Virus genome (UHGV): UHGV-0371537
Strand: one strand, 5' to 3'
DNA: 64,000 nt
Origin: a virus
Part shown: positions 3,260 to 48,102 of the stretch, in pieces
Layout: every line of letters starts with the position of its first letter
How positions within the stretch are numbered: position 1 is the first letter of the stretch
The notes under the pieces: generated by a model
Database searches by the model: none
The model's input: only the letters and a program-made list of their open reading frames with translations
Told to the model about the DNA's origin: nothing
Translations under genes and position numbers: made by a program

Positions 3260-3538
3260 ATGAATCGTACTGAATTTGTTGCCCACATTGCTTCGACCCA
3301 GAACATCACCAAAGGCGAAGCGGAGAAAGTAGTGGCATCCTTTATCGACGGCGTTAAAACTGCAGTTGCTGCAGGTGCGTCTGTACAGCTGGTCGGCTTC
3401 GGCGCGTTCGAAGTTAAAGCGCAAGAAGCGCGTGAAGGTCGCAACCCTCTGAACGGCCAGACCATTCAGATCGCGGCGAAAAACGTTGTGAAATTCAAAG
3501 TGGGCGAAGGTCTGAAGAACGCTGCCAACGGCAAGTAA
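3260..3538 (+). CDS. HU/IHF-family DNA-binding protein
   Basis: 92 aa; ...GFGAFEVKAQEAREGRNPLNGQTIQIAAKNVVKFKVGEGLK matches the HU/IHF fold signature; SD GGAGAAA upstream; terminator follows. Confidence 0.85.
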   Translation: MNRTEFVAHIASTQNITKGEAEKVVASFIDGVKTAVAAGASVQLVGFGAFEVKAQEAREGRNPLNGQTIQIAAKNVVKFKVGEGLKNAANGK

Positions 3539-6184: not shown

Positions 6185-6192
6185 TATTTATA
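6185..6192 (-). promoter_or_regulatory. T4-type late promoter (TATAAATA) for gene 5382..6149
   Basis: Exact TATAAATA on minus strand about 35 nt upstream of the start codon. Confidence 0.55.
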
Positions 6193-6733: not shown

Positions 6734-7462
6734 ATGGGTATGAATTATGTTGATCGTGGCGAGAATGTCGTCAAATATTTTACGGACGAAGATAACGAGC
6801 GTGTCATCAGTATCCTTCGTGACTGGATCCCCGCCCGTAAGAAAGCACTGGCCGAAGGAACAAGACTTCCAAAGATCCCCAACTATGTTGCTGTCCAAGT
6901 CCAGCGCATCATCACCAAGATGAGCACCCGCTACAATTATCGTGACTATCCCTTCCGTGAGGACATGGTCTCTGAAGCCGTCGTGAACATCCTTCGTTAC
7001 CTCCACACGTTTGACGTCGGCCATGTGGGCAAGAAAGGCAAAATCAATTTCTTTTCCTGGGTGACCATGTGTGCTGATCGTTCCTTCGCTCGCAAACTGA
7101 ACATTGAAGAAGAACACACTTACATCAAGTTGCGCTCCTTTGAAGAGGCAGGCGGTTTCGCAGGGCTGGCTGATGACCCAGATTTCCAACAAGAGGTCTT
7201 CGTTGATGCTACTGGGATTGGTATGGACTTCCGCGAGCGCATCGGTAACTTCGAAAACAAGAAGGACGCCCAAAGACAGCGGGAACGCGAAAAGGTAGAG
7301 ACCGCCCGAGCCGCTGAATCGAACAAAAAGATAGCGAAAGGCATACTTCAATACATGTCTCAGGGTAAGAATACCCCAACAGCGCAGGCCGAAGACGATT
7401 CAGATCAGGACTTCGGTAATACCCAATTCGATCTGGAAGAAAACGAAGGAGAAACAGAATAA
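6734..7462 (+). CDS. late-transcription sigma factor, T4 gp55-like
   Basis: Region ...IITKMSTRYNYRDYPFREDMVSEAVVNILRYLHTFD resembles the gp55 core from memory; sits immediately before gp47/gp46 homologs. Confidence 0.65.
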   Translation: MGMNYVDRGENVVKYFTDEDNERVISILRDWIPARKKALAEGTRLPKIPNYVAVQVQRIITKMSTRYNYRDYPFREDMVSEAVVNILRYLHTFDVGHVGKKGKINFFSWVTMCADRSFARKLNIEEEHTYIKLRSFEEAGGFAGLADDPDFQQEVFVDATGIGMDFRERIGNFENKKDAQRQREREKVETARAAESNKKIAKGILQYMSQGKNTPTAQAEDDSDQDFGNTQFDLEENEGETE

Positions 7463-13025: not shown

Positions 13026-13055
13026 AAATAATTCAATAAAAGGGGCTTTCGCCCC

Positions 13056-13084
13056 TTTACTTCTTCAATATCCTTCCCTATACT
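13056..13084 (+). promoter_or_regulatory. sigma70-like early promoter TTTACT-N17-TATACT
   Basis: -35 TTTACT (13056-13061), 17-bp spacer, -10 TATACT (13079-13084); directly after a hairpin. Confidence 0.55.
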
Positions 13085-13132
13085 TCATTCCATAAGCAGT
13101 ACGACACCAACTTGAAACGAAGGAACTATATT

Positions 13133-13492
13133 ATGGCTATCACCACAAAAACTGAATTGAACGCGATCCTGAAAGAAGCTGGCTTCGGTAGTATCAAACG
13201 CCAGGGCAAGGTTTTACGCGATGGCGGTAAAATCGTAAAGGGCATCATGTTGGGAAGTACTGGCCCGTTGAGCATCAGCTCCCCTCAGTATGACAATCTT
13301 CGTAAACTGGCGCGTGAACTTCTCCAAGAAGACCTCCATATCACGACGCAAGAAACCAATTATGTGGTTTTGGAATGCAACAAATTCATCGTCAGCCTTT
13401 ACATCTGCAGCACCCGCTCATATCCGGTGTCTGAAGGTTATGACCCAATGTATCTGACCCATTATGCTCAGGTTACTGTCAAAGCAAAATAA
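13133..13492 (+). CDS. hypothetical protein
   Basis: ATG at 13133 with GAAGGAA SD; conserved leader shared with genes at 19446 and 26876. Confidence 0.45.
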   Translation: MAITTKTELNAILKEAGFGSIKRQGKVLRDGGKIVKGIMLGSTGPLSISSPQYDNLRKLARELLQEDLHITTQETNYVVLECNKFIVSLYICSTRSYPVSEGYDPMYLTHYAQVTVKAK

Positions 13493-17988: not shown

Positions 17989-19046
17989 TGAAATTTCTTG
18001 ACGAGCAATTTATCAACAACGTGTCGCCCCGCCTTGACAAGTTCAAGTGGGAGCGCGTTGGTACTGTCGCAAACTTCCGTTGTCCCCTGTGTGGTGACTC
18101 CACGAAGTCTGCCAACAAGCGCCGTGGATACTTCTTCTATGATCGGGATCATGACTGCTTCCGGTTCAAGTGCCACAACTGCAACCAGATGAATGGCTGG
18201 TCATTTGAGTTCTGGCTGAAGAAGTTCGATGAGCGCCTCTCAACCGAATACAACATGGAGAAGTTCCGTCTGCTGGGCGATACATCAGGCAGACCGCTTC
18301 CTTCCCTGAAGCCGTTACCAAAGCTGACACAGACCGCCCGTATTGGATCAGTGGCGGCGAAACGCGACGAGAGCCTCCTCGGCAATATGCTGCGCCTTGA
18401 TCTGCTACCGCCTGACCATAAGGCTCGACAGTACGTACAGTGGCGAGGACTACCGGAGAGCACGTGGTCTTTGCTGTATTACACGCAGCACTTCCGACAG
18501 GATCTAAAACAGTTCGAAACAGATCCTGAAAAGCAGCTGAAGATCCCTGATGATGAACGGCTGGTGATTCCATTCTGGACGCAAGACGGGCGCATGAAGA
18601 TCGTCCAGGGGCGCGCATTCGACGAAACAGCCACATTGCGTTATGCAACAGTCAAACCCAAGGACGAAGACACGAAGGTGTACGGTGAAGACCGGGTTAA
18701 CTTTCACAAGACCAAGCTGGTCGTGGAAGGTCCGATTGACAGCCTCTTCCTACCCAATTGCATGGCATCAGCTGATGCGGATTTGCTGAGTGTGAAGGGT
18801 GACATCTATATCCCTGATAACCAGTACCGGAACCCGCAGGTGTGTGACGGCATTCAGAAGATGATAGATAAAGGTGTCAAGGTCGTGTTGTTCCCGCCGA
18901 GTATGCCATGGAAAGATATCAACGACATGGTCATGCCATCGAAGGGTAACATGGCCATACGAGACCTCCTGAAGCTGATTGCCCAGAACGTCTACCAGGG
19001 GATGGCCGCATCACTGCAATTTGCCGAACTGAGGAAAGTGAAATGA
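17988..19046 (+). CDS. DNA primase, T4 gp61-like (zinc ribbon)
   Basis: N-terminal zinc ribbon CPLCGDS...CHNC; ATG overlaps upstream stop; replication-gene context. Confidence 0.6.
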   Translation: MKFLDEQFINNVSPRLDKFKWERVGTVANFRCPLCGDSTKSANKRRGYFFYDRDHDCFRFKCHNCNQMNGWSFEFWLKKFDERLSTEYNMEKFRLLGDTSGRPLPSLKPLPKLTQTARIGSVAAKRDESLLGNMLRLDLLPPDHKARQYVQWRGLPESTWSLLYYTQHFRQDLKQFETDPEKQLKIPDDERLVIPFWTQDGRMKIVQGRAFDETATLRYATVKPKDEDTKVYGEDRVNFHKTKLVVEGPIDSLFLPNCMASADADLLSVKGDIYIPDNQYRNPQVCDGIQKMIDKGVKVVLFPPSMPWKDINDMVMPSKGNMAIRDLLKLIAQNVYQGMAASLQFAELRKVK

Positions 19047-19249
19047 CGTTAGAAGAACTGAACAAGCTGGACGACGGGGAGATCGTGCGGGGGTACTTGA
19101 AATCCCGTGAGGGTTATGTCCTATCTGGGGAAGAGTCTCCGAGTTTCATCCACGGCTGGAAGAATGGTCAGGTGGACTTCCATGGTGTTCCCATCAGTCC
19201 TGAGCAGGCCGAATTGGCTCGCGAGTTTGTAAGATTTCGCCCGAGCTAA
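19043..19249 (+). CDS. hypothetical small protein
   Basis: Start overlaps primase stop; terminator follows. Confidence 0.35.
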   Translation: MTLEELNKLDDGEIVRGYLKSREGYVLSGEESPSFIHGWKNGQVDFHGVPISPEQAELAREFVRFRPS

Positions 19250-19278
19250 AACTTTTTACTTCACATCACCCTCCCTCC

Positions 19279-19306
19279 AGGCCTCGTCGAATGAGGCCTT
19301 TTAAAA
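19279..19306 (+). terminator. rho-independent terminator
   Basis: GGCCTC-gtcgaat-GAGGCC hairpin followed by TTTTAAAA. Confidence 0.6.
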
Positions 19307-19343
19307 TACTTCAAAAATATTTTAAAAATTTATTGAAAAAGAC

Positions 19344-19372
19344 TTTACTCTTCAATAATGATGCACTATTAT
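19344..19372 (+). promoter_or_regulatory. sigma70-like early promoter TTTACT-N17-TATTAT with AT-rich upstream region
   Basis: -35 TTTACT (19344-19349), 17-bp spacer, -10 TATTAT (19367-19372); preceded by TTTTAAAA repeats (UP-element-like). Confidence 0.55.
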
Positions 19373-19445
19373 AGTTCACATAGGGCGGTAACACACCGCC
19401 GAATGAAAAGTGAAACGAACCAACTACATTATGAGGAATTACATC

Positions 19446-19934
19446 ATGGCTACTACCAAAACTCTGATCACCAACGGCACCATCTCTTTCGAACTGAACA
19501 CCGAAGTTGCTAAAGTTGAAATGTTCCGCATCGCTCAGGCAGCTGGCTTCACTGGTGGCAAAACTTCCTTCATGAACCTGCTGAACGGCAAAGTGGAAGC
19601 GACTAACGGCTTCACCCTGGTAGAGCAGACTGTGGTTGACAAAGCCGTGGTTGCTAAGGCTGCTGACAAAGTTGGCATGCTGAAAGACCTGGGTCACGAC
19701 ATCCACGTTGTCGAAGCGAATACCGAAACTTACGGCACCATCGTAGTCGGTAAAGGTCGCATCCAGCTGAACCCACTGAACAACGGTTCCTTCTCTGTGA
19801 TGGTCTTCCCTAAGAAGGGCTATGACAACACAGACATCGTGAAAGCTGCTGGCGGCGAAGCGAAAGCTCAGTATGTCAAAATGGGTAAACTGAGCGCCAA
19901 AGACGTTCAGACCCTGGTGAGCAAACTGGCTTAA
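19446..19934 (+). CDS. hypothetical protein (promoter-gene-terminator unit)
   Basis: ATG 19446 with GAGGAA SD; strong promoter upstream and hairpin downstream. Confidence 0.5.
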   Translation: MATTKTLITNGTISFELNTEVAKVEMFRIAQAAGFTGGKTSFMNLLNGKVEATNGFTLVEQTVVDKAVVAKAADKVGMLKDLGHDIHVVEANTETYGTIVVGKGRIQLNPLNNGSFSVMVFPKKGYDNTDIVKAAGGEAKAQYVKMGKLSAKDVQTLVSKLA

Positions 19935-22284: not shown

Positions 22285-22353
22285 GTAACTCACCAACACT
22301 CCCCGCCGCCTTCAATCTACGAGGGCGGCGTATAATATGTTCCGAGACTAATC

Positions 22354-23013
22354 ATGAATTATCAAAATATCTATGACTCTCTGATACAAAGAGCCAAGAC
22401 CCGTTCATTGGTTGGTTATTCTGAAACCCACCATATTATCCCTAGATGTATGGGAGGGAAAGATGACAAACATAATCTGGTGGAGTTGACACCAGAAGAA
22501 CATTATTTAGCACATCAATTGTTAGTCAAAATATATCCCAAAAATTTCAAATTAGCATTTGCAGCTAATGCTATGTGCGTAAACAATGAATTCTCCGGTA
22601 GATCTTGTAACAAATTATTCGGTTGGTTGCGGAGAAAACTTTCTCATTCCAATAAACAGATGTACAAAGACAACCCTAATTTGAGGAAAATTCGTTCCGA
22701 TCAAATGAAACAGACACATGTAAAGTATTCTCATTTGCGGGAAATACAGTCTAAACGTTTGAAGGAAAACAATATATGCGTGATAAAACAACCTTGGGAA
22801 AGTAACCATGCCACCAAAGAGTCTTTGGATATATGGAAACGCGCCGACGAATATTATGATTGGTGGTTGTGCAACCAAAAAGGTTGCACGTTCATGGCGA
22901 AAGCGTTTGGGTTCAAAAACAAGACGACTCCGCATTTCACAATGATTAATAAATTTAAATCTGGGTGGAATCCCAAAGCCGACCCAGAGTGGTTAGAGTT
23001 TGTAAGTCAATAA
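22354..23013 (+). CDS. free-standing HNH homing endonuclease
   Basis: HNH core ETHHIIPRCMGGKDDKHNLVELTPEEHYLAH; inserted between phoH and nrdA. Confidence 0.75.
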   Translation: MNYQNIYDSLIQRAKTRSLVGYSETHHIIPRCMGGKDDKHNLVELTPEEHYLAHQLLVKIYPKNFKLAFAANAMCVNNEFSGRSCNKLFGWLRRKLSHSNKQMYKDNPNLRKIRSDQMKQTHVKYSHLREIQSKRLKENNICVIKQPWESNHATKESLDIWKRADEYYDWWLCNQKGCTFMAKAFGFKNKTTPHFTMINKFKSGWNPKADPEWLEFVSQ

Positions 23014-26545: not shown

Positions 26546-26770
26546 ATGATTACGATCTATTCCAAACAAGGTTGCGCTCAGTGTGTTACAGCTGAAAATC
26601 TGTGTAAGATGAAAGGGCTGGAACACAAGATCCTCAAGCTGGACAAAGACTACCAGCTGGAAGAACTTCAGAAGTTGACGGGTAAGCAGCGCATGTCTAT
26701 GCCTGTAATCGTCCTCGCTGACCAGACCGTGACCGACGTTACTGGACTCGCCGCCAGCCTCAAGCGCTGA
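26546..26770 (+). CDS. glutaredoxin/NrdC-like thiol-disulfide protein
   Basis: 74 aa with CxxC (GCAQC) near N-terminus, downstream of nrdAB. Confidence 0.75.
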   Translation: MITIYSKQGCAQCVTAENLCKMKGLEHKILKLDKDYQLEELQKLTGKQRMSMPVIVLADQTVTDVTGLAASLKR

Positions 26771-26777
26771 TCTGTCA

Positions 26778-26804
26778 AAGCCCCTCAATGAGGGGCTTTA
26801 CTTT
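26778..26804 (+). terminator. rho-independent terminator
   Basis: GCCCCTC-aat-GAGGGGC hairpin followed by TTTACTTTTG. Confidence 0.6.
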
Positions 26805-26825
26805 TGAAACACCCTCCCCTATACT
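26797..26825 (+). promoter_or_regulatory. sigma70-like early promoter TTTACT-N17-TATACT
   Basis: -35 TTTACT (26797-26802), 17-bp spacer, -10 TATACT (26820-26825); same architecture as 13056..13084. Confidence 0.55.
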
Positions 26826-26875
26826 TCCCAATAATTCATTGGCATTCGCCACAAATTGAAAGCGGGAACTATATC

Positions 26876-27337
26876 ATGACAAACAAAGTGCTCACCAACC
26901 CACTGCACAACTTCGGTTACATTCAGCTTCCTCTGGTGATTGATACCCTATACGCTGATGACAAAGAGGAGATCTGTTGGTCTCCAACCGCTCTGATTGA
27001 ACGCGAAATCTTCAAGTCTGTTGTTGATGTTATGTTCCGTATCGGTCGCAATGCACCTCTGGTCTACCTCGGCAAAGCAACTGAACTGAAGACAAGCCAC
27101 AACGAACGCTTCCTGCGCATTGATACTACCGGGTGCTCCCAGCAAGACTTCAACACACTGCGCAATTATGTTCTGGTCAACCGCCCGGTATCCCAGCATC
27201 GTCCTTACCTGACGTCAATGCACATAGACAGTTTCATCACTGACGTACACCTGCAGGCTGAAACCCTCCATGAAGAGGAAACAGGCCGAGCTATCGACAC
27301 TGTCTTAAATATGGTTGTGATCACCCTCGCGGAGTAG
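26876..27337 (+). CDS. hypothetical protein
   Basis: ATG 26876 preceded by the conserved TTGAAA..GGAACTATAT leader; track ORF starts earlier. Confidence 0.45.
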   Translation: MTNKVLTNPLHNFGYIQLPLVIDTLYADDKEEICWSPTALIEREIFKSVVDVMFRIGRNAPLVYLGKATELKTSHNERFLRIDTTGCSQQDFNTLRNYVLVNRPVSQHRPYLTSMHIDSFITDVHLQAETLHEEETGRAIDTVLNMVVITLAE

Positions 27338-29832: not shown

Positions 29833-29840
29833 TATTTATG
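29833..29840 (-). promoter_or_regulatory. possible late promoter variant (CATAAATA) for spike gene
   Basis: TAAATA core about 34 nt upstream of ATG at 29798. Confidence 0.3.
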
Positions 29841-31142: not shown

Positions 31143-31150
31143 TATTTATA
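31143..31150 (-). promoter_or_regulatory. T4-type late promoter TATAAATA
   Basis: Exact TATAAATA on minus strand upstream of start at 31114. Confidence 0.6.
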
Positions 31151-32799: not shown

Positions 32800-33110
32800 T
32801 GGTCGATTACTGGTTGTTGGCGAATTTCTTCACATTCGCTTTGTTGTTGGTGTTTGTACTGATATGGGTGAAGTCATTGTTGACTCTCGTCCATGCGTAC
32901 ATGTATCAGATCAACTTCTATACGTTGTCTCCCCACCGGGACACAAACGTCCGTGCGGATCAACAGGCCGAAGCCATCATTTCATACCAGTTCATTCACA
33001 TTCGCGATAAAATGATCAAGCGAGTTGTGTTTTCTACAGCAGTGTTACTGGCTATCATTATGGTTCGTTTTGTGCTGACAACTGTGGGGGTGTTCCATGC
33101 CGCTGTATGA
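32796..33110 (+). CDS. small membrane protein (two predicted TM segments)
   Basis: Hydrophobic N- and C-terminal segments. Confidence 0.4.
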   Translation: MMVDYWLLANFFTFALLLVFVLIWVKSLLTLVHAYMYQINFYTLSPHRDTNVRADQQAEAIISYQFIHIRDKMIKRVVFSTAVLLAIIMVRFVLTTVGVFHAAV

Positions 33111-33342
33111 TTATCAGTGCGGGGAATGCGGGAATGCGATGACGCTGCGGAAATCAATTGCAGACCGCCATGAACCAGAATCTAACCCTTGCGCTGAGTG
33201 CGGAGGGGAGATTAAAATGGTGGTGGGCGCTCCTAAGATCGTGTCTGGGGTTAAGGGACCACAATCTGCACCGGATGGTTTCAAGGACGTTCTGCGCACG
33301 ATTAAGAAAGGCTCTGGTAAGGGGAACACAATCGATGTCTGA
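33097..33342 (+). CDS. FmdB-family zinc-ribbon protein
   Basis: MPLYDYQCGECG ... CAECGG pattern (CxxC...CxxC). Confidence 0.5.
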   Translation: MPLYDYQCGECGNAMTLRKSIADRHEPESNPCAECGGEIKMVVGAPKIVSGVKGPQSAPDGFKDVLRTIKKGSGKGNTIDV

Positions 33343-33827: not shown

Positions 33828-33840
33828 TTCAGTGCAGTAA

Positions 33841-33858
33841 CGGGGTATAATTACCCCG
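33841..33858 (+). repeat. TATAAT-containing palindrome (CGGGGTA-taat-TACCCCG) upstream of gp32
   Basis: Perfect 7-bp inverted repeat around TAAT, followed by CTTTAAAG; member of a recurring class. Confidence 0.5.
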
Positions 33859-33924: not shown

Positions 33925-34962
33925 ATGGGTAATTTATTTGATCGTCTGAAGCAGTCCCGTGGTCAACAGGCCGACGCAATGCAGGCGCGTCTGGCACAGC
34001 AAGGCCAGAAGTCCGGCTTCCAGAAGGATCCTCGCATCTGGAAATGGACTTGGAATAAGGAAGGTATTTCTCAGAACACCATCCGCTTCCTGCCAGTTCC
34101 GCTGGTAGACGTCAAGGCACAAGAAGAAGGAACGATCGATAAAGATCAGATCCTGACTCCTTGCGCCATGATCATGAAGCATCAGTTCCAGGGACCTGGT
34201 GGTTGGTACATCGAAAACTCACCTCAGACGTTCGGCAACGACGACCCGGTGCGTGACCATGACCGTCCGCTGTGGGCGCAACAGAAAGAAACGAACGACG
34301 AAAAGCTGAAGGACGTGCTGAAGAAACGTCTGCCAGACACCAAATACTACGCCAACATCCTGGTGATCGAAGATGTCAACGTACCGGAAAACAACGGCAA
34401 GGTCTTCCTGCTGGAGTTTGGTAACGCCATCAAGAAAATCTTGGACCAGGCGCAGAATCCTAAGTTCCCGACCGACCCTAAATTCGACCCGTTCGATCTG
34501 TGGGAAGGTGCCAACCTGAACCTCAAGCTCTTCGGTGAGCAGAAGAAGTTCGGCAACTGGGAAGGTCTGGTGGCTAACTTCTCCAACGTCAGCTGGGCGG
34601 CTCCGGCTCCGCTGAGCGAAGACGAAGCCTACATGGAAGACGTGTGGTCTCGTGAACATAGCCTGTTTGAATTCTTCAACCCGGCGAATTTCAAGAGCTA
34701 CGATGACCTGGAGAAACGCCTGCGCAAAGTGCTGGCGATTCCTGATGGTCAGCCTCTGGTTGAAGGTGGTGCGGCTACTATGGCGCATGCCCCTACGAAC
34801 CAGGCTCCAGCACAACAGCCTGTTAAACAACAGCCAACTGCTCAAGACAGCCTGAACCAACAGCAATCACAACCTTCGCAGTCTGCTGTTAATCATCAGA
34901 CGCCGGATCCTAAAGCAACAGGGTCTATCGAAGACTTTGAGCAGTTCCTCAAAGATAACTGA
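33925..34962 (+). CDS. single-stranded DNA-binding protein, T4 gp32-like
   Basis: IRFLPVP, YYANILVIEDVNVPENNGKVFLLEFG, DLWEGANLNLKLFG resemble gp32 core; acidic C-terminus. Confidence 0.8.
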   Translation: MGNLFDRLKQSRGQQADAMQARLAQQGQKSGFQKDPRIWKWTWNKEGISQNTIRFLPVPLVDVKAQEEGTIDKDQILTPCAMIMKHQFQGPGGWYIENSPQTFGNDDPVRDHDRPLWAQQKETNDEKLKDVLKKRLPDTKYYANILVIEDVNVPENNGKVFLLEFGNAIKKILDQAQNPKFPTDPKFDPFDLWEGANLNLKLFGEQKKFGNWEGLVANFSNVSWAAPAPLSEDEAYMEDVWSREHSLFEFFNPANFKSYDDLEKRLRKVLAIPDGQPLVEGGAATMAHAPTNQAPAQQPVKQQPTAQDSLNQQQSQPSQSAVNHQTPDPKATGSIEDFEQFLKDN

Positions 34963-34965
34963 TTC

Positions 34966-34992
34966 AAAAGCCCTCTTCGGAGGGCTTTTTAT
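34966..34992. terminator. bidirectional rho-independent terminator
   Basis: GCCCTC-ttcg-GAGGGC hairpin flanked by AAAA and TTTTT between convergent genes. Confidence 0.65.
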
Positions 34993-35933
34993 TTCCCCAT
35001 CACGTCGCGCAAAATGCCGAGCAGATTTGTCTTTTCGGCTGCTGTCAAATTGTCATTTCCCATGATGTCTCGTGAGATACCAACTGAGATGCGCTCGAAG
35101 TCCTGGAGACTGATTCCAGCAAGGTTGTTCACCAATTGGTCCAGTTGTTTGTAAGCCAGGAGAGCCTCTCCTGTGAAGTTCCCTTCCTTCACCTTGCGAT
35201 AAAGCTGTCCGGCTTTGGAGGCCGCAGTTTCCCAGTCACCACTGGCAAGAGCATCAGCAATCCCAAGAGGAAGAAAATCGCTGGCAAGGCTGCGTGTTTC
35301 ATATTCTGTCTCCGATAAGACTTTGTTGTAAGAGAATGTGATGTTGTATTGGTTGAACTGGTCTGTGGCTCCCTTGTCCAGTTCGATTGTACTGAAGTTG
35401 ATCGGATGCGCTTCAACGATGTAGACGCGATGGACAACCTGATCTTCCGTATCCATCTGCTCGATACAGATATCGGTTACGAAATCTTCGTAATAACCCA
35501 TCTTGGTCGTGTACGGATCAAAGATCAGATTCTTCCACTTGTCCATCACAGACTTTTCATAATAATCGTTTGCCAAGAGGAATGTCAGATCCAAGTCCAC
35601 GTTGGACTTGTTGTTCGGCATCTTGATGTGGTTGCCGTTGTTGGTCATTGGAGTCGTGTCGATACCAACCCCTGGCATTCCAGCAACCATACACATCATT
35701 TGCAAGGAACGGGACGTTTGGTTTGTCCCTCCAAAGAAAGCGTTTACAATACGGGCTGTCTGTTTGAACAAATCACCAAACGAAGATCCGGTTGCATATG
35801 CCTTCCCGTCGTTGGCGAGAGTGGCATTGCTGTCGAATATGCCTGGTGGCAGGGGGATGGTGACCCGGAATCGGTTCTTCCGTGATATCCCGCGCTGTAA
35901 TAATTCGGTGATGAAATTGCGATAGTCTTCCAC
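34989..35933 (-). CDS. late structural protein, possibly tail-tube/baseplate associated (gp48/gp54-like)
   Basis: GTG start with AAGTGGAGT SD; minus-strand late orientation; weak resemblance only. Confidence 0.35.
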   Translation of the reverse strand: MEDYRNFITELLQRGISRKNRFRVTIPLPPGIFDSNATLANDGKAYATGSSFGDLFKQTARIVNAFFGGTNQTSRSLQMMCMVAGMPGVGIDTTPMTNNGNHIKMPNNKSNVDLDLTFLLANDYYEKSVMDKWKNLIFDPYTTKMGYYEDFVTDICIEQMDTEDQVVHRVYIVEAHPINFSTIELDKGATDQFNQYNITFSYNKVLSETEYETRSLASDFLPLGIADALASGDWETAASKAGQLYRKVKEGNFTGEALLAYKQLDQLVNNLAGISLQDFERISVGISRDIMGNDNLTAAEKTNLLGILRDVMGK

Positions 35934-36697: not shown

Positions 36698-36726
36698 CCC
36701 GTTCCGGGTGATAATTCGCGAACGGG
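36698..36726 (+). repeat. palindrome CCCGTTC-N15-GAACGGG containing GATAAT
   Basis: 7-bp inverted repeat with 15-nt loop upstream of gene 36754. Confidence 0.4.
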
Positions 36727-37547: not shown

Positions 37548-37575
37548 CGCGCTCCGCTTGGCGGGGCGCTGTTTA
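37548..37575 (+). terminator. rho-independent terminator
   Basis: CGCGCTCCGC-ttg-GCGGGGCGC hairpin (one G-U) followed by TGTTT. Confidence 0.5.
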
Positions 37576-37611
37576 ACATGAAGGTGTTAACTTCTTTTCA
37601 ATAAAAAGTGG

Positions 37612-37639
37612 TTTACATCTATGAAAAATGCAGTATATT
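37612..37639 (+). promoter_or_regulatory. sigma70-like promoter TTTACA-N16-TATATT
   Basis: -35 TTTACA (37612-37617), 16-bp spacer, -10 TATATT (37634-37639), AT-rich upstream. Confidence 0.5.
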
Positions 37640-37709
37640 ATGTTCTCACTACACAGTCAGAACAGCAATATGCCGCGAAGACGGTCTTAATAACGAAAGG
37701 GTTTTTATT

Positions 37710-38606
37710 ATGTCATATATTCTTCATGTAGAATCTGGTTCTAAATTTGATATTGAAGGCAAAGACGTTGCGGCTATCCAGGCCGAGATCAAGGCCGCAG
37801 GCCTGCTGATTGGCAACGTTACCCTGCGCCGTATGGTTGAAGGTGCTCTTGAATCTGCTAACGGCTTCGAACTCATCGAAGGTCTGAGCGAAGAAGAGCG
37901 ACAGGAAACTCAGGAAGCTCTGGCGCAAGCACAAGAGCAGGCTGAAGCCGTGGAAGCACTGAACGTAGCCGACACCGTAGCCGATGAAGCGCCGATTTCT
38001 GCTGACGCCACTTCTGGTATCGTTGTCGATTCTCAGGACGTGAAACCTGCCGAAGGTGATCAGGCGGCTGACACTGGCGCAACCACCGCATCCTCCGATG
38101 CTATCAAAGATGCCGTTGCCGAAGCCCTGAAAGAAGGCGATCAACCGTCCGACGCGAAAGTGAGTTCCCTGGCGTCTTCTATGCTGAAAGAAGCGGCGAA
38201 GGGTAAAACCCTGACACCTATGGCATCACAGGAAGAGCGTAAGCGCCGTCACACCAAACGCGAAGAAATGGTAGAAGCCGCTCGTGCGTCCAACCACGGT
38301 CCAATCCTGGCTGCCATTGAAGCAGGCGTCGTGCCGGGTGTGTTCCTCAGCTATGTTAACCCTGATATGCGCTGGTTCCAATTCCCAGTCACAGAACTGG
38401 CAGACCCAGAGAACCTGCATGCCCGCACTAACACATACGTTGACGTCGCGCCTATCGTTTCCGGCGGCTGGGGCTTCAGTCTGTACGTGAACGGCAAATC
38501 CTTCACTAAGCGTCAGAAAATCAAAGAGGCCGATGCCGAGTCTCTGGTGAACGCAATCAATGCCTGGTTGCCTCAGGCGCTGGCCGAAGCGAAAGCTGCT
38601 GCTTAA
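37710..38606 (+). CDS. acidic Ala/Glu-rich protein of unknown function
   Basis: ATG 37710 (MSYILHVESG...); long low-complexity A/E/D-rich centre. Confidence 0.45.
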   Translation: MSYILHVESGSKFDIEGKDVAAIQAEIKAAGLLIGNVTLRRMVEGALESANGFELIEGLSEEERQETQEALAQAQEQAEAVEALNVADTVADEAPISADATSGIVVDSQDVKPAEGDQAADTGATTASSDAIKDAVAEALKEGDQPSDAKVSSLASSMLKEAAKGKTLTPMASQEERKRRHTKREEMVEAARASNHGPILAAIEAGVVPGVFLSYVNPDMRWFQFPVTELADPENLHARTNTYVDVAPIVSGGWGFSLYVNGKSFTKRQKIKEADAESLVNAINAWLPQALAEAKAAA

Positions 38607-38636
38607 TTTAAGTTCAGAATCTGTTCAATAGATGAA

Positions 38637-38668
38637 GGGGCTGCTATAATAGCAGCTCCTTTTGTTTA
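38637..38668 (+). terminator. rho-independent terminator with TATAAT in the hairpin
   Basis: GGGCTGCTAT-A-ATAGCAGCTCC hairpin followed by TTTTGTTTATT; TGcTATAAT (extended -10-like) inside the stem. Confidence 0.6.
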
Positions 38669-38680
38669 TTGGAGCAGTCT

Positions 38681-39346
38681 ATGTCCTACTCCCTCAAGGG
38701 GTTGCTCAAGCGCCCCGTCCACACATTCATTAAACCGCCTGTCGTAAAGGGGATATACCCGGCACGAGGGCAAATCTATTACGTCAAAGGCTCGAATGGT
38801 AGCGGTAAATCTACCGTGCCTTCCCAGCTGGCGGAGAGGGATCCTCAGGCGTATGTCGTGACGCATGATAGCAAGATCATGCTGACGGTCTGTCCGTCAT
38901 TCAACGTGGTCTGCATTGGCAAATATGATAAGTCAAAGTCCAAGGGGGTTGATTCTCTGAAGGATACTGAACAAATGCTATTCGCCCTGAGCATCGCCGA
39001 TCTACCTGAATATCAGGTATACGATGTGATCTTTGAAGGCATCATCCCGTCAACACTGCTGAGTTCCTGGATTCCCCGCCTGACGCGCCCACCGCGCGAA
39101 CTGGTTGTCCTCTTCATGGACACCCCTCTTGAAACCTGCATCGCCCGTGTTAAATCACGTAACGGCGGTGCGGACTTCAATGAGAGCCTCGTGGTAGAGA
39201 AGTGGGGGCGCGTTCAAGACCACCGCCAGCGCCATAAGGGCTTGTTCCCTACGGTGGCCGCAGGTATGATGAAGTCTCACGGTCTAACAGTAGACCAGGC
39301 TGTAATGGCATTCCTCTGTCGTGATTTTGGGGATATTGATGACTAA
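38681..39346 (+). CDS. P-loop kinase (candidate nucleotide/nucleic-acid kinase of the base-modification module)
   Basis: Walker A GSNGSGKST near N-terminus; ATG 38681 with GGAG SD; adjacent to TS-family and dNMP kinase genes. Confidence 0.55.
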   Translation: MSYSLKGLLKRPVHTFIKPPVVKGIYPARGQIYYVKGSNGSGKSTVPSQLAERDPQAYVVTHDSKIMLTVCPSFNVVCIGKYDKSKSKGVDSLKDTEQMLFALSIADLPEYQVYDVIFEGIIPSTLLSSWIPRLTRPPRELVVLFMDTPLETCIARVKSRNGGADFNESLVVEKWGRVQDHRQRHKGLFPTVAAGMMKSHGLTVDQAVMAFLCRDFGDIDD

Positions 39347-39911
39347 GAAATTGGTCTATGGGGTTGGTCACAACGACATGCCCTATGGCACAGCTACGGT
39401 AAATGGAAAGGCAACCGACGAATATTCTGCTTGGTCGGGGTTGTTACAAAGGGCGTATGATCCAAAATACCATGCCAGAAATCCGACTTATGTTGGTTGC
39501 TCTGTCGTGGAAGAGTGGCATTTTCGATCGAAATTCGTTAAGTGGTTTGGTGTGAACTACGTTAAAGGATGGTGTCTAGACAAGGATATTTTGAATCCTG
39601 GAAACAAAGTTTATGGCCCAGACACATGCATCTATGTGCCCGTTTGGATCAATACATTTGCCAATGATAGCGGCGCAATAAGGGGTGGTCTCCCAATAGG
39701 AGTTTCATTAAACAAGACAACCGGAAAATATCTTTCTCAGTGTAAATCCGGTGGTAAAGTGATAAATCTGGGTTATTACGACGACCCCAAAGAAGCGCAC
39801 GAGGTTTGGTTGAGATTTAAGCTAAACCTGGTTTTGGAAAGGAAGAAAGACATGGATAGTATAGACCATCGTATTTATCCAAATCTGGTTCATATTTTGC
39901 AAAGTAAATGA
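39339..39911 (+). CDS. homing-endonuclease-like protein with AP2-type DNA-binding domain
   Basis: AP2-like segment TGKYLSQCKSGGKVINLGYYDDPKEAHEVW; N-terminal region resembles the HNH-associated module of phage homing endonucleases. Confidence 0.45.
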   Translation: MTKKLVYGVGHNDMPYGTATVNGKATDEYSAWSGLLQRAYDPKYHARNPTYVGCSVVEEWHFRSKFVKWFGVNYVKGWCLDKDILNPGNKVYGPDTCIYVPVWINTFANDSGAIRGGLPIGVSLNKTTGKYLSQCKSGGKVINLGYYDDPKEAHEVWLRFKLNLVLERKKDMDSIDHRIYPNLVHILQSK

Positions 39912-45429: not shown

Positions 45430-45458
45430 TTCAATAAAGCAGATCATAGGGTATAATT
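45430..45458 (+). promoter_or_regulatory. sigma70-like promoter TTCAAT-N17-TATAAT inside a palindrome
   Basis: -10 TATAAT (45453-45458) lies in the loop of palindrome AGATCATAG/CTATGATCT (45441-45467). Confidence 0.45.
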
Positions 45459-45841: not shown

Positions 45842-46162
45842 ATGTCTGTAGAACAAATCGGCTTTTATGCACTACCGTCTGATCCTGAGTCTCGCCGCAA
45901 GCTGATGGGCGCGATTGAAAACTGCCGCGCCGCCCAGGTCCGCATCAAATCGGAACAGACCTTCATTACAGAAACCCTGGCCGAACTGGCGAAAGATACT
46001 GGCATCAAAGCCTCCGACCTGCGCAAGGTTGTGTCTGACCGTGCCAATGGCACCTACCAGAAAACGATCGAAACGAGCGAGAAGTATCAGGATCTTTACG
46101 AATCCCTGTTCCCGAACGCCAAGCCTGATCGTGATCCAAACGTTACAACGTCTGACGAATAA
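45842..46162 (+). CDS. hypothetical protein
   Basis: ORF with GAGGAA SD; terminator follows. Confidence 0.4.
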   Translation: MSVEQIGFYALPSDPESRRKLMGAIENCRAAQVRIKSEQTFITETLAELAKDTGIKASDLRKVVSDRANGTYQKTIETSEKYQDLYESLFPNAKPDRDPNVTTSDE

Positions 46163-46179
46163 GTTGACCAAACACCAAG

Positions 46180-46208
46180 AAGCCCAGTCAAGTACTGGGC
46201 TTTTTAAT
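46180..46208 (+). terminator. rho-independent terminator
   Basis: GCCCAGT-caagt-ACTGGGC hairpin followed by TTTTT. Confidence 0.65.
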
Positions 46209-46217
46209 TTCAATAAC

Positions 46218-46246
46218 TTTACTTTCAAGAATAAAGCGCCTATTAT
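46218..46246 (+). promoter_or_regulatory. sigma70-like early promoter TTTACT-N17-TATTAT
   Basis: -35 TTTACT (46218-46223), 17-bp spacer, -10 TATTAT (46241-46246). Confidence 0.55.
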
Positions 46247-46289: not shown

Positions 46290-47483
46290 ATGAACGCCAA
46301 AACATTCAACATTCCGATCGACAATGAAGGGCTAGTGGTTGAGCGACTGAAAAAGCTCGAGCGCACTGCTGTCCGTCTGGGTGTACCATTCCCGACTGTG
46401 ACTTATGGTGAACCCTTCAAGACCCACACCCGTGACTTCACTGGTGAGATCCTCACTCACTGGTGGAAGCCCGTCACCCTCGAAGGTGAAGGCATTGACC
46501 GCCCGGTGTCATACGGTGGTTGGAAAATCATTGGTCAGTTCAATCACGAATACCCAAAGGTCATTCTGAACCGACTGTCCGACAATATCAATGCTGACTT
46601 CATCCGTCGCTTCGAGACAGAGAATGTCTCTTGGTGCCAGCATTGCAACCTGCTCATCAATCGCAAGAACACATATGTGATTGAAAACGAGGAAACGCAC
46701 ACTCAGATGCTGATCGGCAGCACCTGCATGCATCATTATGTGCCTCATCAGAAGTCCCTTGACGCGATCATGTCTTACTATCTGGGAATCCAGGAGTTCT
46801 TCATGCCGGATGAAGATGATCCAGAGGGCATCTATCGCGTTCGTAACGAACAATTCACAGATACCCACAATTACCTGCGTGCGTGCTTCCAGGTGATGCT
46901 GTCTGGCGTAGACATCAAGTCTGAACTATTTGACAAAGTCCTGGGCTATGTCCGGTCTTATCAGAAACCAAAAGCAGGTTCCGATGAAGAGCATTTCGTA
47001 TACAAGGCACACGAGTACCGTGAAGACGCCGAGTCAGAAATGTACCACATGAAGCTCTTCATCAGTGCGCTGTCTGAATCCAATGAATTCAACGTTCGCC
47101 TGAAACGCATGTGTGAACCGGGCTACCACCTGATCAAGGACGATAACACAGTCCGCTGGGGTGCCAAGAAGTATTACGATTACATCCATCGCCCTCGCGC
47201 CGACCGCAAGACAGAGAACAAATGGGTGGGCGAAGTCGGGGAGATGCTGGAAGTACAAGTCAGGTTCGACAAGCGCGTCTTCCTCTTCTCCAATGAATAC
47301 GGTGACAGCTACCTGTTTACTTTCAAAACAGTAGAAGGCAATACAATTACCTGGAAGACCTCTTGTATGGATACAGAGTTCTTGCAGGGCGATATGATCA
47401 TCCGTGGTCGTGTCAAAGAACTGACTGAGTACAACGGTGTTAAACAAACTCAGGTCACCCGAGCCAAATTGAGGAAATTATGA
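46290..47483 (+). CDS. hypothetical protein (Cys/His-rich centre)
   Basis: ATG 46290 (MNAKTF...); no confident family. Confidence 0.5.
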   Translation: MNAKTFNIPIDNEGLVVERLKKLERTAVRLGVPFPTVTYGEPFKTHTRDFTGEILTHWWKPVTLEGEGIDRPVSYGGWKIIGQFNHEYPKVILNRLSDNINADFIRRFETENVSWCQHCNLLINRKNTYVIENEETHTQMLIGSTCMHHYVPHQKSLDAIMSYYLGIQEFFMPDEDDPEGIYRVRNEQFTDTHNYLRACFQVMLSGVDIKSELFDKVLGYVRSYQKPKAGSDEEHFVYKAHEYREDAESEMYHMKLFISALSESNEFNVRLKRMCEPGYHLIKDDNTVRWGAKKYYDYIHRPRADRKTENKWVGEVGEMLEVQVRFDKRVFLFSNEYGDSYLFTFKTVEGNTITWKTSCMDTEFLQGDMIIRGRVKELTEYNGVKQTQVTRAKLRKL

Positions 47484-48007: not shown

Positions 48008-48069
48008 AATGCGCAAGTATTTCAACTGGTTGTTGGCAAGATCCCGCAGCCAATAATCTATTGAAGTCC

Positions 48070-48102
48070 CCAGGGTTATAATAGCAACACATATAACCCT
48101 GG
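48070..48102 (+). repeat. palindrome CCAGGGTTATA-N11-TATAACCCTGG overlapping ligase SD
   Basis: 11-bp perfect inverted repeat; left arm contains TATAAT (48077-48082), right arm abuts SD GGAG (48101-48104). Confidence 0.5.

What the first reader, a model, noticed from the sequence alone, without database searches (positions are those of the whole stretch)
13056..13084. Phage-specific early promoter family with invariant TTTACT -35 hexamer
Four promoters share an identical -35 TTTACT and exact 17-bp spacing to a TATACT or TATTAT -10: 13056..13084, 26797..26825, 19344..19372 and 46218..46246. Each lies directly downstream of a terminator hairpin and upstream of a plus-strand gene. Spacers share a TTCAA-like segment. 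Identity at -35 suggests a tuned early class, possibly needing a phage- or host-specific factor.
Basis: seen in the sequence. Interest (0 to 1): 0.4.

Follow-up and report, generated by a model that had tools for sequence, protein, structure and literature searches.

The report
T4-type early promoters after terminators
The four sites, plus a fifth, look like real host-polymerase promoters placed just after terminators in a ViI-like (Ackermannviridae) phage, and they match the early-promoter type and promoter-terminator cassettes already described for T4-like phages, so they are ordinary though poorly documented for this family.

Summary
TTTACT-N17-TAT(ACT/TAT) occurs exactly at 13056, 19344, 26797 and 46218: 4 hits against 0.05 expected. 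A fifth member, GTTTACA-N16/18-TATATT/TATTAT, lies at 37612.

A weight matrix trained only on relatives separates these five (16.9-21.8 bits, all intergenic, all + strand) from everything else (13.7 or less; shuffle maxima 11.9-14.8).

The window comes from an Ackermannviridae phage (Aglimvirinae, Agtrevirus-like). All five sites keep their position, their -35 and their 16-17 bp spacing in five genera. The -10 always reads TATnnT. Cross-genus identity is 97% for the -35, 84-86% for the -10 and 56% for the spacers.

Each site follows a stable hairpin and heads a unit whose first gene has no known function.

Best reading: host sigma-70 promoters of the T4 early type (T4 consensus -35 is GTTTAC), built into promoter/stem-loop cassettes like the PeSLs of T4-like phages. 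Two indels in relatives are bounded by such cassettes.

"Phage-specific" and "needs a factor" are not supported. Published AG3 and LIMEstone1 annotations already mark homologues of three of the five as putative promoters in the same register. No transcript mapping was found, so activity and timing are inferred.

One conserved extra element, TTCAATAA, remains unexplained.

The parts
13056..13084 (+). Promoter 1. -35 TTTACT at 13056-13061, 17 bp spacer containing TTCAATA (13064-13070), -10 TATACT at 13079-13084. It heads the gene at 13133-13492, which has no Pfam match.
   Evidence: 21.8 bits. Orthologues in six relatives spanning all five genera keep TTTACT, 16-17 bp and TATA(C/A)T or TATTAT.
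13039..13058 (+). Terminator-like hairpin AAAGGGGC-TTTC-GCCCCTTT. Its 3' TTT is also the first half of the -35. An A/T-rich TTCAATAAAA lies upstream at 13032-13041.
   Evidence: -13.5 kcal/mol, z -4.05.
19344..19372 (+). Promoter 3. -35 TTTACT at 19344-19349, -10 TATTAT at 19367-19372. It heads the gene at 19446-19934 (phrog_3764, unknown function).
   Evidence: 21.0 bits. Conserved as far as the Serratia phage, which has CTTTACG-N17-TATATT. The LIMEstone1 record marks the same -10 as a 'putative middle promoter'.
19330..19358 (+). Inverted repeat TTATTGAA-N13-TTCAATAA that brackets the -35 of promoter 3.
   Evidence: 1 hit, 0 in shuffles. The same arrangement occurs at three AG3 sites and in the CBA120, Menlow and Serratia phages.
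19279..19299 (+). Terminator-like hairpin, followed by TTTTAAAA, 44 nt upstream of promoter 3.
   Evidence: -13.6 kcal/mol, z -4.5.
26797..26825 (+). Promoter 2. -35 TTTACT at 26797-26802, -10 TATACT at 26820-26825. It heads the gene at 26876-27337 (phrog_3902, unknown function).
   Evidence: 21.8 bits. Six different spacer sequences in eight relatives, with unchanged hexamers and 17 bp spacing.
26777..26799 (+). Terminator-like hairpin whose T tail overlaps the -35 of promoter 2.
   Evidence: -16.6 kcal/mol, z -5.1. Annotated as a terminator in LIMEstone1.
37612..37641 (+). Promoter 5, not in the finding. -35 (G)TTTACA at 37612-37617; -10 is TATATT at 37634-37639 (16 bp) or TATTAT at 37636-37641 (18 bp). 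TTCAATAAAAAG lies upstream at 37597-37608. It heads the gene at 37710-38606 (phrog_3905, unknown function).
   Evidence: 16.9 bits. Conserved in all five genera. Annotated as a 'putative early promoter' in LIMEstone1 and as Porf069 in AG3.
37549..37569 (+). Hairpin upstream of promoter 5.
   Evidence: -17.9 kcal/mol; z only -2.3.
46218..46246 (+). Promoter 4. -35 TTTACT at 46218-46223, -10 TATTAT at 46241-46246. TTCAATAA lies immediately upstream at 46209-46216. It heads the gene at 46290 (or 46278)-47483 (phrog_2319, unknown function).
   Evidence: 21.0 bits. Conserved in all five genera. Marked 'putative middle promoter' in LIMEstone1.
46177..46205 (+). Terminator hairpin with a TTTTT tail upstream of promoter 4.
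   Evidence: -16.8 kcal/mol, z -6.0. Listed as terminator Torf057 in the AG3 paper.

Best explanation
The five sites are promoters read by the host RNA polymerase carrying sigma-70.

**How they work (inferred).**
- Sigma region 4 would bind the -35 element (C/G)TTTAC(T/A), and region 2 would bind a TATnnT -10 placed 16-17 bp downstream.
- At three sites an A/T-rich stretch upstream could serve as an UP element.

**What they do (inferred).**
- Each promoter sits immediately after, or partly inside, an intrinsic-terminator hairpin. Transcription from the preceding unit is stopped or attenuated there and restarted at a set strength.
- This divides the + strand replication and nucleotide-metabolism block into units of about 1-10 kb. 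Each unit begins with a small gene of unknown function.
- By analogy with T4, they would fire immediately after infection without any phage protein. Genes further down each unit would then be delayed-early by distance.

**What kind of element this is.** The terminator-plus-promoter module is the same kind of composite element as the PeSLs (promoter-early stem-loops) of T4-like phages. Like PeSLs, these modules also appear to act as recombination joints.

**Shown versus inferred.**
- Shown: sequence, statistics, hairpin stability, conservation pattern and cassette-bounded indels.
- Inferred: promoter activity, sigma-70 dependence, early timing and terminator efficiency.
For: **Statistics.**
- 4 hits against 0.05 expected.
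- A matrix trained on relatives only gives the five sites 16.9-21.8 bits. The next best hit scores 13.7 and is in coding sequence. Shuffle maxima are 11.9-14.8.
- All five are intergenic, co-oriented with the genes, and 44-74 nt from a start codon.

**Conservation footprint.**
- Sampled genera: Agtrevirus, Limestonevirus, Kuttervirus, Taipeivirus and Miltonvirus. Their hosts are Shigella, Salmonella, Dickeya, Escherichia, Klebsiella and Serratia.
- Cross-genus identity is 97% for the -35, 84-86% for the -10 and 56% for the spacers.
- Positions 1, 2, 3 and 6 of the -10 are invariant in 25 of 25 instances; positions 4 and 5 vary. Spacing is always 16-17 bp.

**Match to sigma-70 consensus.** 9-10 of 12 positions.

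**Family size.** The complete genome of the relative AG3 has 10 such sites, all intergenic and all on the strand of the early/replication genes.

**Known type.** GTTTAC is the published T4 early -35.

**Cassette architecture.**
- Hairpins are stable.
- The architecture fits the PeSL description: an upstream stop codon, an A/T-rich region, a sigma-70-like promoter, and a stem-loop placed upstream of or overlapping a box, mostly before genes of unknown function.
- All five first genes lack any Pfam domain.

**Cassette-bounded indels.**
- In phage allotria an ORF is flanked by two hairpin+TTTACT cassettes.
- In SKML-39 a gene annotated there as a hypothetical protein (not characterised here) sits inside the promoter-2 cassette, with TTTACTTT at both junctions.

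**Earlier annotators.** AG3 Table S2 and the LIMEstone1 record independently called homologues of sites 3, 4 and 5 promoters.
Against: - There are no experimental data on transcript 5' ends, timing or polymerase requirements for any Ackermannviridae phage in the literature I could search.
- A generic sigma-70 consensus scan finds no more hits in the window than in shuffles (17 vs 19.5; 26 vs 23.2). Resemblance to the consensus alone therefore proves nothing.
- The extended -10 TGn that T4 early promoters typically carry is absent at all five sites.
- At sites 1 and 2 a G+C-rich hairpin occupies the place of the proximal UP element.
- About 40% of thymidines in ViI-like virion DNA carry a bulky 5-NeOmdU modification (PMC5889632). 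How sigma-70 reads T-rich hexamers on such DNA is unknown.
- The third -35 position is strictly T and never the consensus G. A TTCAATAA element is conserved in or beside many of the promoters. Simple sigma-70 recognition requires neither.
- The hairpins at sites 1 and 2 have short, interrupted T tails (TTTACTT), so termination may be partial.
Confidence: 0.7

Rival explanations
1. The sites are factor-dependent (middle-type) promoters. A phage-encoded or injected protein would bind the conserved TTCAATAA / CTTCA element next to the -35. It would activate these promoters, as MotA/AsiA do at T4 middle promoters, or shut them off after the early phase.
For: - TTCAATA is the most enriched intergenic 7-mer: 9 of 16 copies in the window and 35 of 61 copies non-coding in AG3.
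- It lies 1-3 nt after the -35 at sites 1, 3 and 4, and this holds across genera.
- A perfect inverted repeat TTATTGAA-N12-14-TTCAATAA brackets the -35 at 19330-19358 and at three AG3 sites; 0.1 are expected by chance.
- The LIMEstone1 authors labelled the site 3 and site 4 homologues 'middle', using CTT as a MotA-box core at about -29 to -27.
- The invariant non-consensus T in the -35 suggests an added constraint.
- The window encodes candidate DNA-binding proteins: 45842-46162 (phrog_639, transcriptional regulator), an HU homologue at 3260-3538, and a zinc-ribbon protein at 33097-33342.
Against: - A conserved -35 at optimal spacing is exactly what MotA-type promoters lack.
- The T4 MotA box TGCTTtA is matched only as CTTCA.
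- The CBA120 paper reports no MotA, AsiA, Alt or Mod homologues in ViI-like phages.
- Sites 2 and 5 lack the box.
- The box shifts by 0-3 nt relative to the hexamers between genera, which is unexpected for a factor that must contact the polymerase.
- TTCAATAA also precedes hairpins as an A-tract and can be read as part of a weak -35 (nnTTCA) in a second promoter class.
Confidence: 0.17
2. The conserved blocks are not promoters. They would be RNA-level or recombination elements: terminator tails, 5' leader or processing signals, or repeats kept by recombination between cassettes.
For: - At sites 1 and 2 the TTT of TTTACT is the terminator's T tail.
- Promoter-plus-leader blocks are repeated within a genome. 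AG3 64904 and 100549 share TATACTTCATTCCATAAGCAGTACGACAC.
- Indels are bounded by the cassettes.
- Leaders share a TGAAACGAAGGAACTATATyATG block.
Against: - At sites 3, 4 and 5 TTTAC is separated from the hairpin.
- Conservation is concentrated in two hexamers at fixed 16-17 bp spacing, with the TATnnT pattern typical of protein-DNA recognition by sigma. The sequence between them diverges freely.
- A recombination role does not exclude promoter activity. PeSLs have both.
Confidence: 0.08
3. Chance co-occurrence of weak consensus matches in A/T-rich intergenic DNA.
For: Sigma-70-like matches in general are no more frequent than in shuffles. TTTACT alone is not enriched.
Against: - 4 hits against 0.05 expected.
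- A matrix trained on other genomes cleanly separates the five sites.
- All five are conserved across five genera.
Confidence: 0.01

Closest known systems
T4-type early promoters (Pe) of T4 and T4-like phages
   Same: - The -35 region is GTTTAC-like, with T rather than the E. coli consensus G at the third position. Site 5 is exactly GTTTACA (PMC1524935).
- A TAnnnT -10 lies 16-17 bp downstream.
- An A-rich stretch lies around -40 to -44 at sites 3 and 5, partly at site 4.
- They precede small genes of unknown function and head units that run into replication genes.
- They are presumed to be read by unmodified host sigma-70 holoenzyme.
   Different: - Position -36 is C rather than G at four of the five sites.
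- There is no extended -10 TGn.
- At sites 1 and 2 a terminator hairpin replaces the proximal UP region.
- TTCAATAA is conserved in or beside the spacer.
- The phage family reportedly lacks Alt, the enzyme proposed to favour T at -33 in T4.
- The DNA carries modified thymidines rather than modified cytosines.
- No experimental mapping exists.
PeSLs (promoter-early stem-loops) of T4-like phages RB49/phi1, T4/PST and KVP40/nt-1 (PMC2839356, PMC4122927)
   Same: - A composite intergenic cassette: upstream stop codon, A/T-rich stretch, sigma-70-like early promoter, and a G/C-rich stem-loop that acts as a terminator. The stem-loop lies upstream of, or overlaps, the -35 or -10.
- Several copies per genome.
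- Mostly in front of genes of unknown function.
- Cassettes bound insertions and deletions between close relatives.
   Different: - Described for Tevenvirinae-type phages, not for Ackermannviridae.
- There are about 10 TTTAC-type copies per genome here, against about 50 in RB49/phi1.
- They lie inside the conserved replication block rather than mainly in hyperplastic regions.
- Promoter and terminator activity and mini-circle formation are untested here.
Published promoter annotations of relatives (phiSboM-AG3 Table S2; LIMEstone1 record HE600015)
   Same: - AG3 Porf069 is the site 5 homologue.
- AG3 Porf138 is another TTTACT member that lies outside this window.
- LIMEstone1 marks the same -10 hexamers for the site 3, 4 and 5 homologues.
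   Different: - The annotations are inconsistent: 'early' for one site and 'middle' for two.
- A different register was chosen for site 3 in AG3 and for site 1 in LIMEstone1.
- The site 2 homologue is not annotated as a promoter.
- Neither source recognises TTTAC as the shared -35 of a family.
- The CBA120 paper states that early promoters could not be identified by informatics.
E. coli lac P1 / lacUV5 promoter (own knowledge, not tested here)
   Same: The -35 hexamer is TTTACA, which is functional with sigma-70. lacUV5 is factor-independent.
   Different: It is a host promoter with an 18 bp spacer and no terminator cassette.

Membership tests
Sigma-70 type -35/-10 promoter | -35 hexamer resembling TTGACA | tested here: met
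   TTTACT or TTTACA matches 4-5 of 6 positions. TTTAC is invariant in 25 of 25 cross-genus instances.
Sigma-70 type -35/-10 promoter | 16-18 bp spacer | tested here: met
   17 bp at four sites and 16 or 18 bp at 37612. It is 16-17 bp in all orthologues.
Sigma-70 type -35/-10 promoter | -10 hexamer with conserved A at position 2 and T at position 6 | tested here: met
   T-A-T-n-n-T is invariant in 25 of 25 instances, while positions 4 and 5 vary.
Sigma-70 type -35/-10 promoter | Transcription starts 6-9 nt downstream of the -10 with sigma-70 holoenzyme | not testable with these tools
   This needs in vitro transcription or 5'-end mapping. No published mapping was found.
T4-type early promoter | GTTTAC at -36 to -31 | tested here: met
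   (C/G)TTTAC at all five sites. Site 5 is exactly GTTTAC; the other four have C at -36.
T4-type early promoter | A-rich UP-like region around -40 to -44 | tested here: inconclusive
   Present at 19344 (GAAAAAGA) and 37612 (ATAAAAAG), and partial at 46218. At 13056 and 26797 the G+C-rich hairpin takes its place.
T4-type early promoter | Extended -10 (TGn) common | tested here: not met
   The -10 is preceded by ccc, ccc, cac, gcc and cag. None has TG at -15/-14.
T4-type early promoter | Active immediately after infection without phage protein synthesis | not testable with these tools
   This needs RNA analysis with and without chloramphenicol.
PeSL (promoter-early stem-loop cassette) | Intergenic composite of a sigma-70-like promoter and a stable stem-loop | tested here: met
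   Hairpin energies are -13.5 to -17.9 kcal/mol. Two hairpins overlap the -35 and three lie 12-44 nt upstream. PeSL definition.
PeSL (promoter-early stem-loop cassette) | Repeated in the genome and preferentially upstream of genes of unknown function | tested here: met
   5 copies in the window and 10 in AG3. All five first genes lack a Pfam domain and fall in PHROGs of unknown function.
PeSL (promoter-early stem-loop cassette) | Cassettes bound indels between related genomes | tested here: met
   In allotria, ORF 26719-27105 of L006 is flanked by two cassettes. In SKML-39, a gene is inserted within the cassette with TTTACTTT at both junctions. These are only two cases.
PeSL (promoter-early stem-loop cassette) | Demonstrated promoter and terminator activity; mini-circle formation | not testable with these tools
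   This needs reporter assays and inverse PCR.
T4 middle (MotA/AsiA-dependent) promoter | MotA box (a/t)(a/t)(a/t)TGCTTtA centred at -30 in place of a -35 element | tested here: not met
   Only CTTCA of the box is present, at sites 1 and 3. A conserved -35 at 17 bp is present instead.
T4 middle (MotA/AsiA-dependent) promoter | Phage encodes MotA and AsiA | not tested
   The CBA120 paper reports no homologues in ViI-like phages. I did not screen a full proteome.

The most novel reading that the evidence does not exclude
The conserved TTCAATAA element could be the binding site of an unidentified phage (or host) DNA-binding protein. It sometimes occurs as the inverted repeat TTATTGAA-N12-14-TTCAATAA bracketing the TTTAC -35. 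It recurs 14 bp upstream of hairpin-embedded TATAAT boxes in front of replication genes. Such a protein could switch transcription from the TTTAC early promoters to a second promoter class. That would fill the role MotA/AsiA play in T4, in a phage family reported to lack them.
Probability: 0.15. Interest if true: 0.6.

Novelty: new member of a known kind. Interest (0 to 1): 0.3.

Why it matters
ViI-like phages (Ackermannviridae) are widely used for biocontrol and phage therapy, yet how they control transcription before replication has not been worked out. The CBA120 genome paper says their early promoters could not be found by informatics.

This work gives three practical things:
- a concrete, cross-genus consensus: (C/G)TTTAC(T/A), 16-17 bp, TATnnT, usually just after a terminator hairpin;
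- a transcription-unit map for the replication block;
- specific 5' ends to look for.

It also extends the PeSL idea, promoter-terminator cassettes as recombination joints, beyond the T4-like phages. It is an incremental result and does not reveal a new mechanism.

Tried and rejected
- **Generic sigma-70 consensus scan.** It lists the sites but finds no more hits than in shuffles, so it cannot be used as evidence.
- **Viral-contig scan with TTTACTNNTTCAATAA.** A 14-base A/T-rich pattern is too unspecific, so I abandoned it.
- **Rfam scan of the whole window.** No family reached threshold.
- **Literature searches for transcript mapping in Ackermannviridae.** Nothing was found. One search was badly framed and wasted.
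- **Miller et al. 2003 T4 genome review.** Not held, so I took the GTTTAC consensus from Nolan et al. 2006 instead.
- **MotA-like reading of TTCAAT-N14-TAnnnT.** I considered it and then downgraded it. The same sites can be read as a weak -35 (nnTTCA) at 16 bp with a perfect -10. The box also shifts relative to the hexamers between genera.
- **AG3 authors' alternative register for site 3 (TTGAAA...ATAAT).** Rejected, because its -10 is lost in the Menlow and Serratia phages while TTTAC-N17-TAT(T/A)(A/T)T is kept.
- **My first ORF-overlap filter.** It wrongly dropped the window's own sites, so I replaced it with a gene-call mask.

Full report
**1. The observation**

The four sites are exactly as described. 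Each has TTTACT, a 17 bp spacer, then TATACT (13056, 26797) or TATTAT (19344, 46218).

The combined pattern TTTACT-N17-TATNNT occurs four times on both strands of the window. In 100 dinucleotide-preserving shuffles the mean was 0.05 and the largest count 1. TTTACT alone is not enriched, with 17 copies against 19 expected.

Relaxing the last -35 base reveals a fifth site at 37612. It reads GTTTACA, followed by TATATT after 16 bp or TATTAT after 18 bp.

Stable hairpins precede all five sites, with energies of -13.5 to -17.9 kcal/mol. At 13056 and 26797 the TTT of the -35 is also the first part of the hairpin's T tail. The hairpin ends 12 nt before the -35 at 46218. The gap is 42-44 nt at 19344 and 37612.

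All five sites are intergenic, on the + strand, and 44-74 nt from a start codon.

**2. What the window is**

The window is 89-95% identical to Agtrevirus phages (SKML-39, AG3, ChubbyThor) and about 87% identical to Limestonevirus phages. It is therefore a ViI-like phage of the family Ackermannviridae, subfamily Aglimvirinae.

The + strand block that carries the sites encodes:
- the gp55 late sigma factor (6734-7462);
- gp47/gp46, the primase, NrdAB, gp32, thymidylate synthase, UvsX, gp41, ligase and gp59, by transfer from annotated relatives.

Late structural genes lie on the - strand.

**3. Is it a family, and how large?**

I built a weight matrix from relatives only: the 10 AG3 sites plus orthologues from Kuttervirus, Taipeivirus and Miltonvirus. 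I then scanned the window with it.
- The five sites score 21.8, 21.8, 21.0, 21.0 and 16.9 bits.
- The next hit scores 13.7 bits and lies inside a gene.
- The best scores in ten shuffles were 11.9-14.8 bits.

So the window holds exactly five members.

In the complete AG3 genome the same pattern gives 10 convincing intergenic sites. All are on the strand of the early and replication genes.

A spacing histogram in AG3 is informative:
- TTTAC[AT]...TAnnnT peaks at 16-17 bp in non-coding DNA (5 + 5 hits, against 2 in coding DNA).
- Canonical TTGAC at 16-18 bp shows no non-coding enrichment (3 non-coding against 14 coding).

TTTAC, not TTGAC, is therefore the -35 this phage lineage uses.

**4. Comparative evidence for function**

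I fetched the syntenic region from these relatives:

| Phage | Genus |
|---|---|
| SKML-39, ChubbyThor | Agtrevirus |
| LIMEstone1, Coodle | Limestonevirus |
| CBA120, allotria | Kuttervirus |
| Menlow | Taipeivirus |
| Serratia phage 2050H1 | Miltonvirus |

All five sites are present at the orthologous position in all five genera.

Taking one representative per genus:
- -35 hexamers are 97% identical;
- -10 hexamers are 84-86% identical;
- spacers are 56% identical;
- TTTAC is invariant in 25 of 25 instances;
- -10 positions 1, 2, 3 and 6 (T, A, T, T) are invariant in 25 of 25, while positions 4 and 5 vary freely;
- spacing is always 16 or 17 bp.

Site 2 shows six different spacer sequences between unchanged hexamers.

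This is the footprint expected of recognition by sigma-70 regions 4 and 2. A conserved RNA or a recent repeat would not give it. The hosts span six genera of Enterobacterales. I assume, from general knowledge, that their sigma-70 DNA-binding regions are nearly identical.

**5. Comparison with what is known**

- *T4 early promoters.* Nolan et al. 2006 state that T4 early promoters carry GTTTAC at -36 to -31, together with an A-rich region at -40 to -44. Other T4-like phages share this, some with G at -33. Hinton 2010 describes T4 early promoters as very good sigma-70 promoters used immediately after infection. The sites here are (C/G)TTTAC(T/A).
- *The lac promoter.* From my own knowledge, TTTACA is also the -35 of the lac promoter.
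- *Conclusion on specificity.* The -35 is neither phage-specific nor a sign of a special factor.
- *PeSLs.* Arbiol et al. 2010 and Comeau et al. 2014 describe PeSLs. These are intergenic cassettes made of the upstream stop codon, an A/T-rich stretch, a strong sigma-70-like early promoter and a G/C-rich stem-loop terminator. The stem-loop may sit upstream of, overlap, or lie between the promoter boxes. PeSLs lie mostly before genes of unknown function and mediate modular shuffling. The five sites fit this description.
- *Downstream genes.* The first gene after each site has no Pfam domain and belongs to a PHROG of unknown function.
- *Indels in relatives.* Two are bounded by the cassettes. In allotria an extra ORF lies between two hairpin+TTTACT cassettes. 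In SKML-39 an unannotated gene lies inside the site-2 cassette, with TTTACTTT at both junctions.

**6. Prior annotation**

- AG3 Table S2 lists TTtACAtttatgaaaaatgcagTATAtT (site 5). It also lists a site-3 promoter in another register and one more TTTACT member outside this window.
- The LIMEstone1 record marks the site 5 homologue as 'putative early'.
- The same record marks the site 3 and 4 homologues as 'putative middle', with the same -10 hexamers as here.
- It places the site 1 homologue in a different register and gives only a terminator at site 2.
- The CBA120 paper found only a few canonical promoters. It states that early promoters could not be identified, and that Alt, Mod, MotA and AsiA homologues are absent.
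- A 2021 review notes in general terms that promoter sequences and locations are conserved in Aglimvirinae.
- I found no transcript mapping.

**7. Mechanism proposed**

Host sigma-70 holoenzyme initiates at these promoters on the injected DNA. The preceding hairpins stop or attenuate upstream transcription. The + strand block is thus cut into units starting at about 13.1, 19.4, 26.9, 37.7 and 46.3 kb.

Each unit opens with a small gene of unknown function and usually continues into replication or nucleotide-metabolism genes. Those genes would be expressed later because of their distance from the promoter, as in T4.

Promoter activity, timing and termination efficiency are inferred, not shown.

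**8. What remains unexplained**

- *The third -35 position.* It is T in every instance and never drifts to the consensus G.
- *The TTCAATAA element.* TTCAATA is the most enriched intergenic 7-mer. It sits 1-3 nt after the -35 at sites 1, 3 and 4 in all genera. It can also sit just upstream, at -37 to -59.
- *The inverted repeat.* At 19330-19358, at three AG3 sites and in the CBA120, Menlow and Serratia phages, TTATTGAA-N12-14-TTCAATAA forms a perfect inverted repeat around the -35.
- *A second promoter-like class.* TTCAAT-N14(13-16)-TAnnnT usually has a perfect TATAAT inside a hairpin. It is sharply peaked at 14 bp in AG3 non-coding DNA, with 13 hits, and is conserved across genera. It precedes the tk-like gene, a homing-endonuclease gene and other genes. 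Similar hairpin-embedded TATAAT elements, with a degenerate or inverted box, precede gp32 and the ligase gene.
- *Two readings of the box.* It could be the site of a regulator. It can also be read as a weak -35 (nnTTCA at 16 bp) compensated by a perfect -10, and it overlaps the A-tract of terminators.
- *My judgement.* I keep the regulator idea as the most novel reading, at low probability.
- *Thymidine hypermodification.* About 40% of T in ViI-like virion DNA is modified. This is an untested complication for T-rich hexamers.

**9. Verdict**

The promoter interpretation is well supported by comparative evidence. The claims of a phage-specific class and a required factor are not supported.

The elements are new members of known kinds: T4-type early promoters in PeSL-like cassettes. 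They are partly annotated already in relatives. Interest is modest.

Noticed in passing
window 22311-22336, 38624-38650, 45430-45457; related elements at 33830-33853, 36700-36717 and 48066-48088; AG3 loci L009-L012: A second promoter-like class. TTCAAT(AA) lies 14 (13-16) bp upstream of a near-perfect TATAAT that sits in the loop or 3' arm of a G+C-rich hairpin. It precedes the tk-like gene, a homing-endonuclease gene and other genes; related hairpin-embedded TATAAT elements with a degenerate or inverted box precede gp32 and the ligase gene. In AG3 non-coding DNA the spacing histogram peaks sharply at 14 bp (13 hits). The elements are conserved across genera. They resemble PeSLs whose stem-loop overlaps the -10.
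   Followed up: partly
window 19330-19358: A perfect inverted repeat TTATTGAA-N13-TTCAATAA is centred on the -35 of promoter 3. The same arrangement recurs at three AG3 promoters and in Kuttervirus, Taipeivirus and Miltonvirus phages. It could be an operator or an UP element plus spacer element.
   Followed up: partly
window 19255-19278: TTTACTTCACATCACCCTCCCTCC lies right after the stop of gene 19043-19249. It resembles the -35 and spacer of promoter 2 (TTTACT...CACCCTCCCC) but has no -10 and runs into the hairpin. It may be a decayed cassette.
   Followed up: no
window 13112-13135, 26856-26878, 19410-19433: The leaders of promoters 1, 2 and 3 share a block, (T)TGAAACGAAGGAACTATATyATG, that ends at a start codon. 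Similar blocks occur in Serratia phage leaders. It could be a common translation-initiation or regulatory RNA element. In AG3, promoter-plus-leader blocks are also duplicated (64904 and 100549).
   Followed up: no
L006 (allotria) 26620-27210; L001 (SKML-39) 34450-35330: An extra ORF in allotria is flanked by two hairpin+TTTACT cassettes. In SKML-39 a gene annotated as a hypothetical protein is inserted inside the site-2 cassette, with TTTACTTT at both junctions. Both look like cassette-mediated shuffling.
   Followed up: partly
window 6185-6192 (-), 31143-31150 (-), 29833-29840 (-): T4-like late promoter motifs lie upstream of - strand structural genes. TATAAATA occurs twice and CATAAATA once, before the gp5-like baseplate hub gene. 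This fits the gp55 late sigma homologue at 6734-7462.
   Followed up: no
window 22354-23013 and 39321-39911: Two homing-endonuclease genes (phrog_655 and phrog_953). The second lies between the tk-like and thymidylate synthase genes, a position that is empty in ChubbyThor.
   Followed up: partly
window 19383-19401 and 26831-26846: Short hairpins lie 10-15 nt downstream of the predicted starts of promoters 3 and 2. Similar leader hairpins follow AG3 promoters at 79821 and 80198. They may stabilise the 5' end of the transcripts.
   Followed up: no
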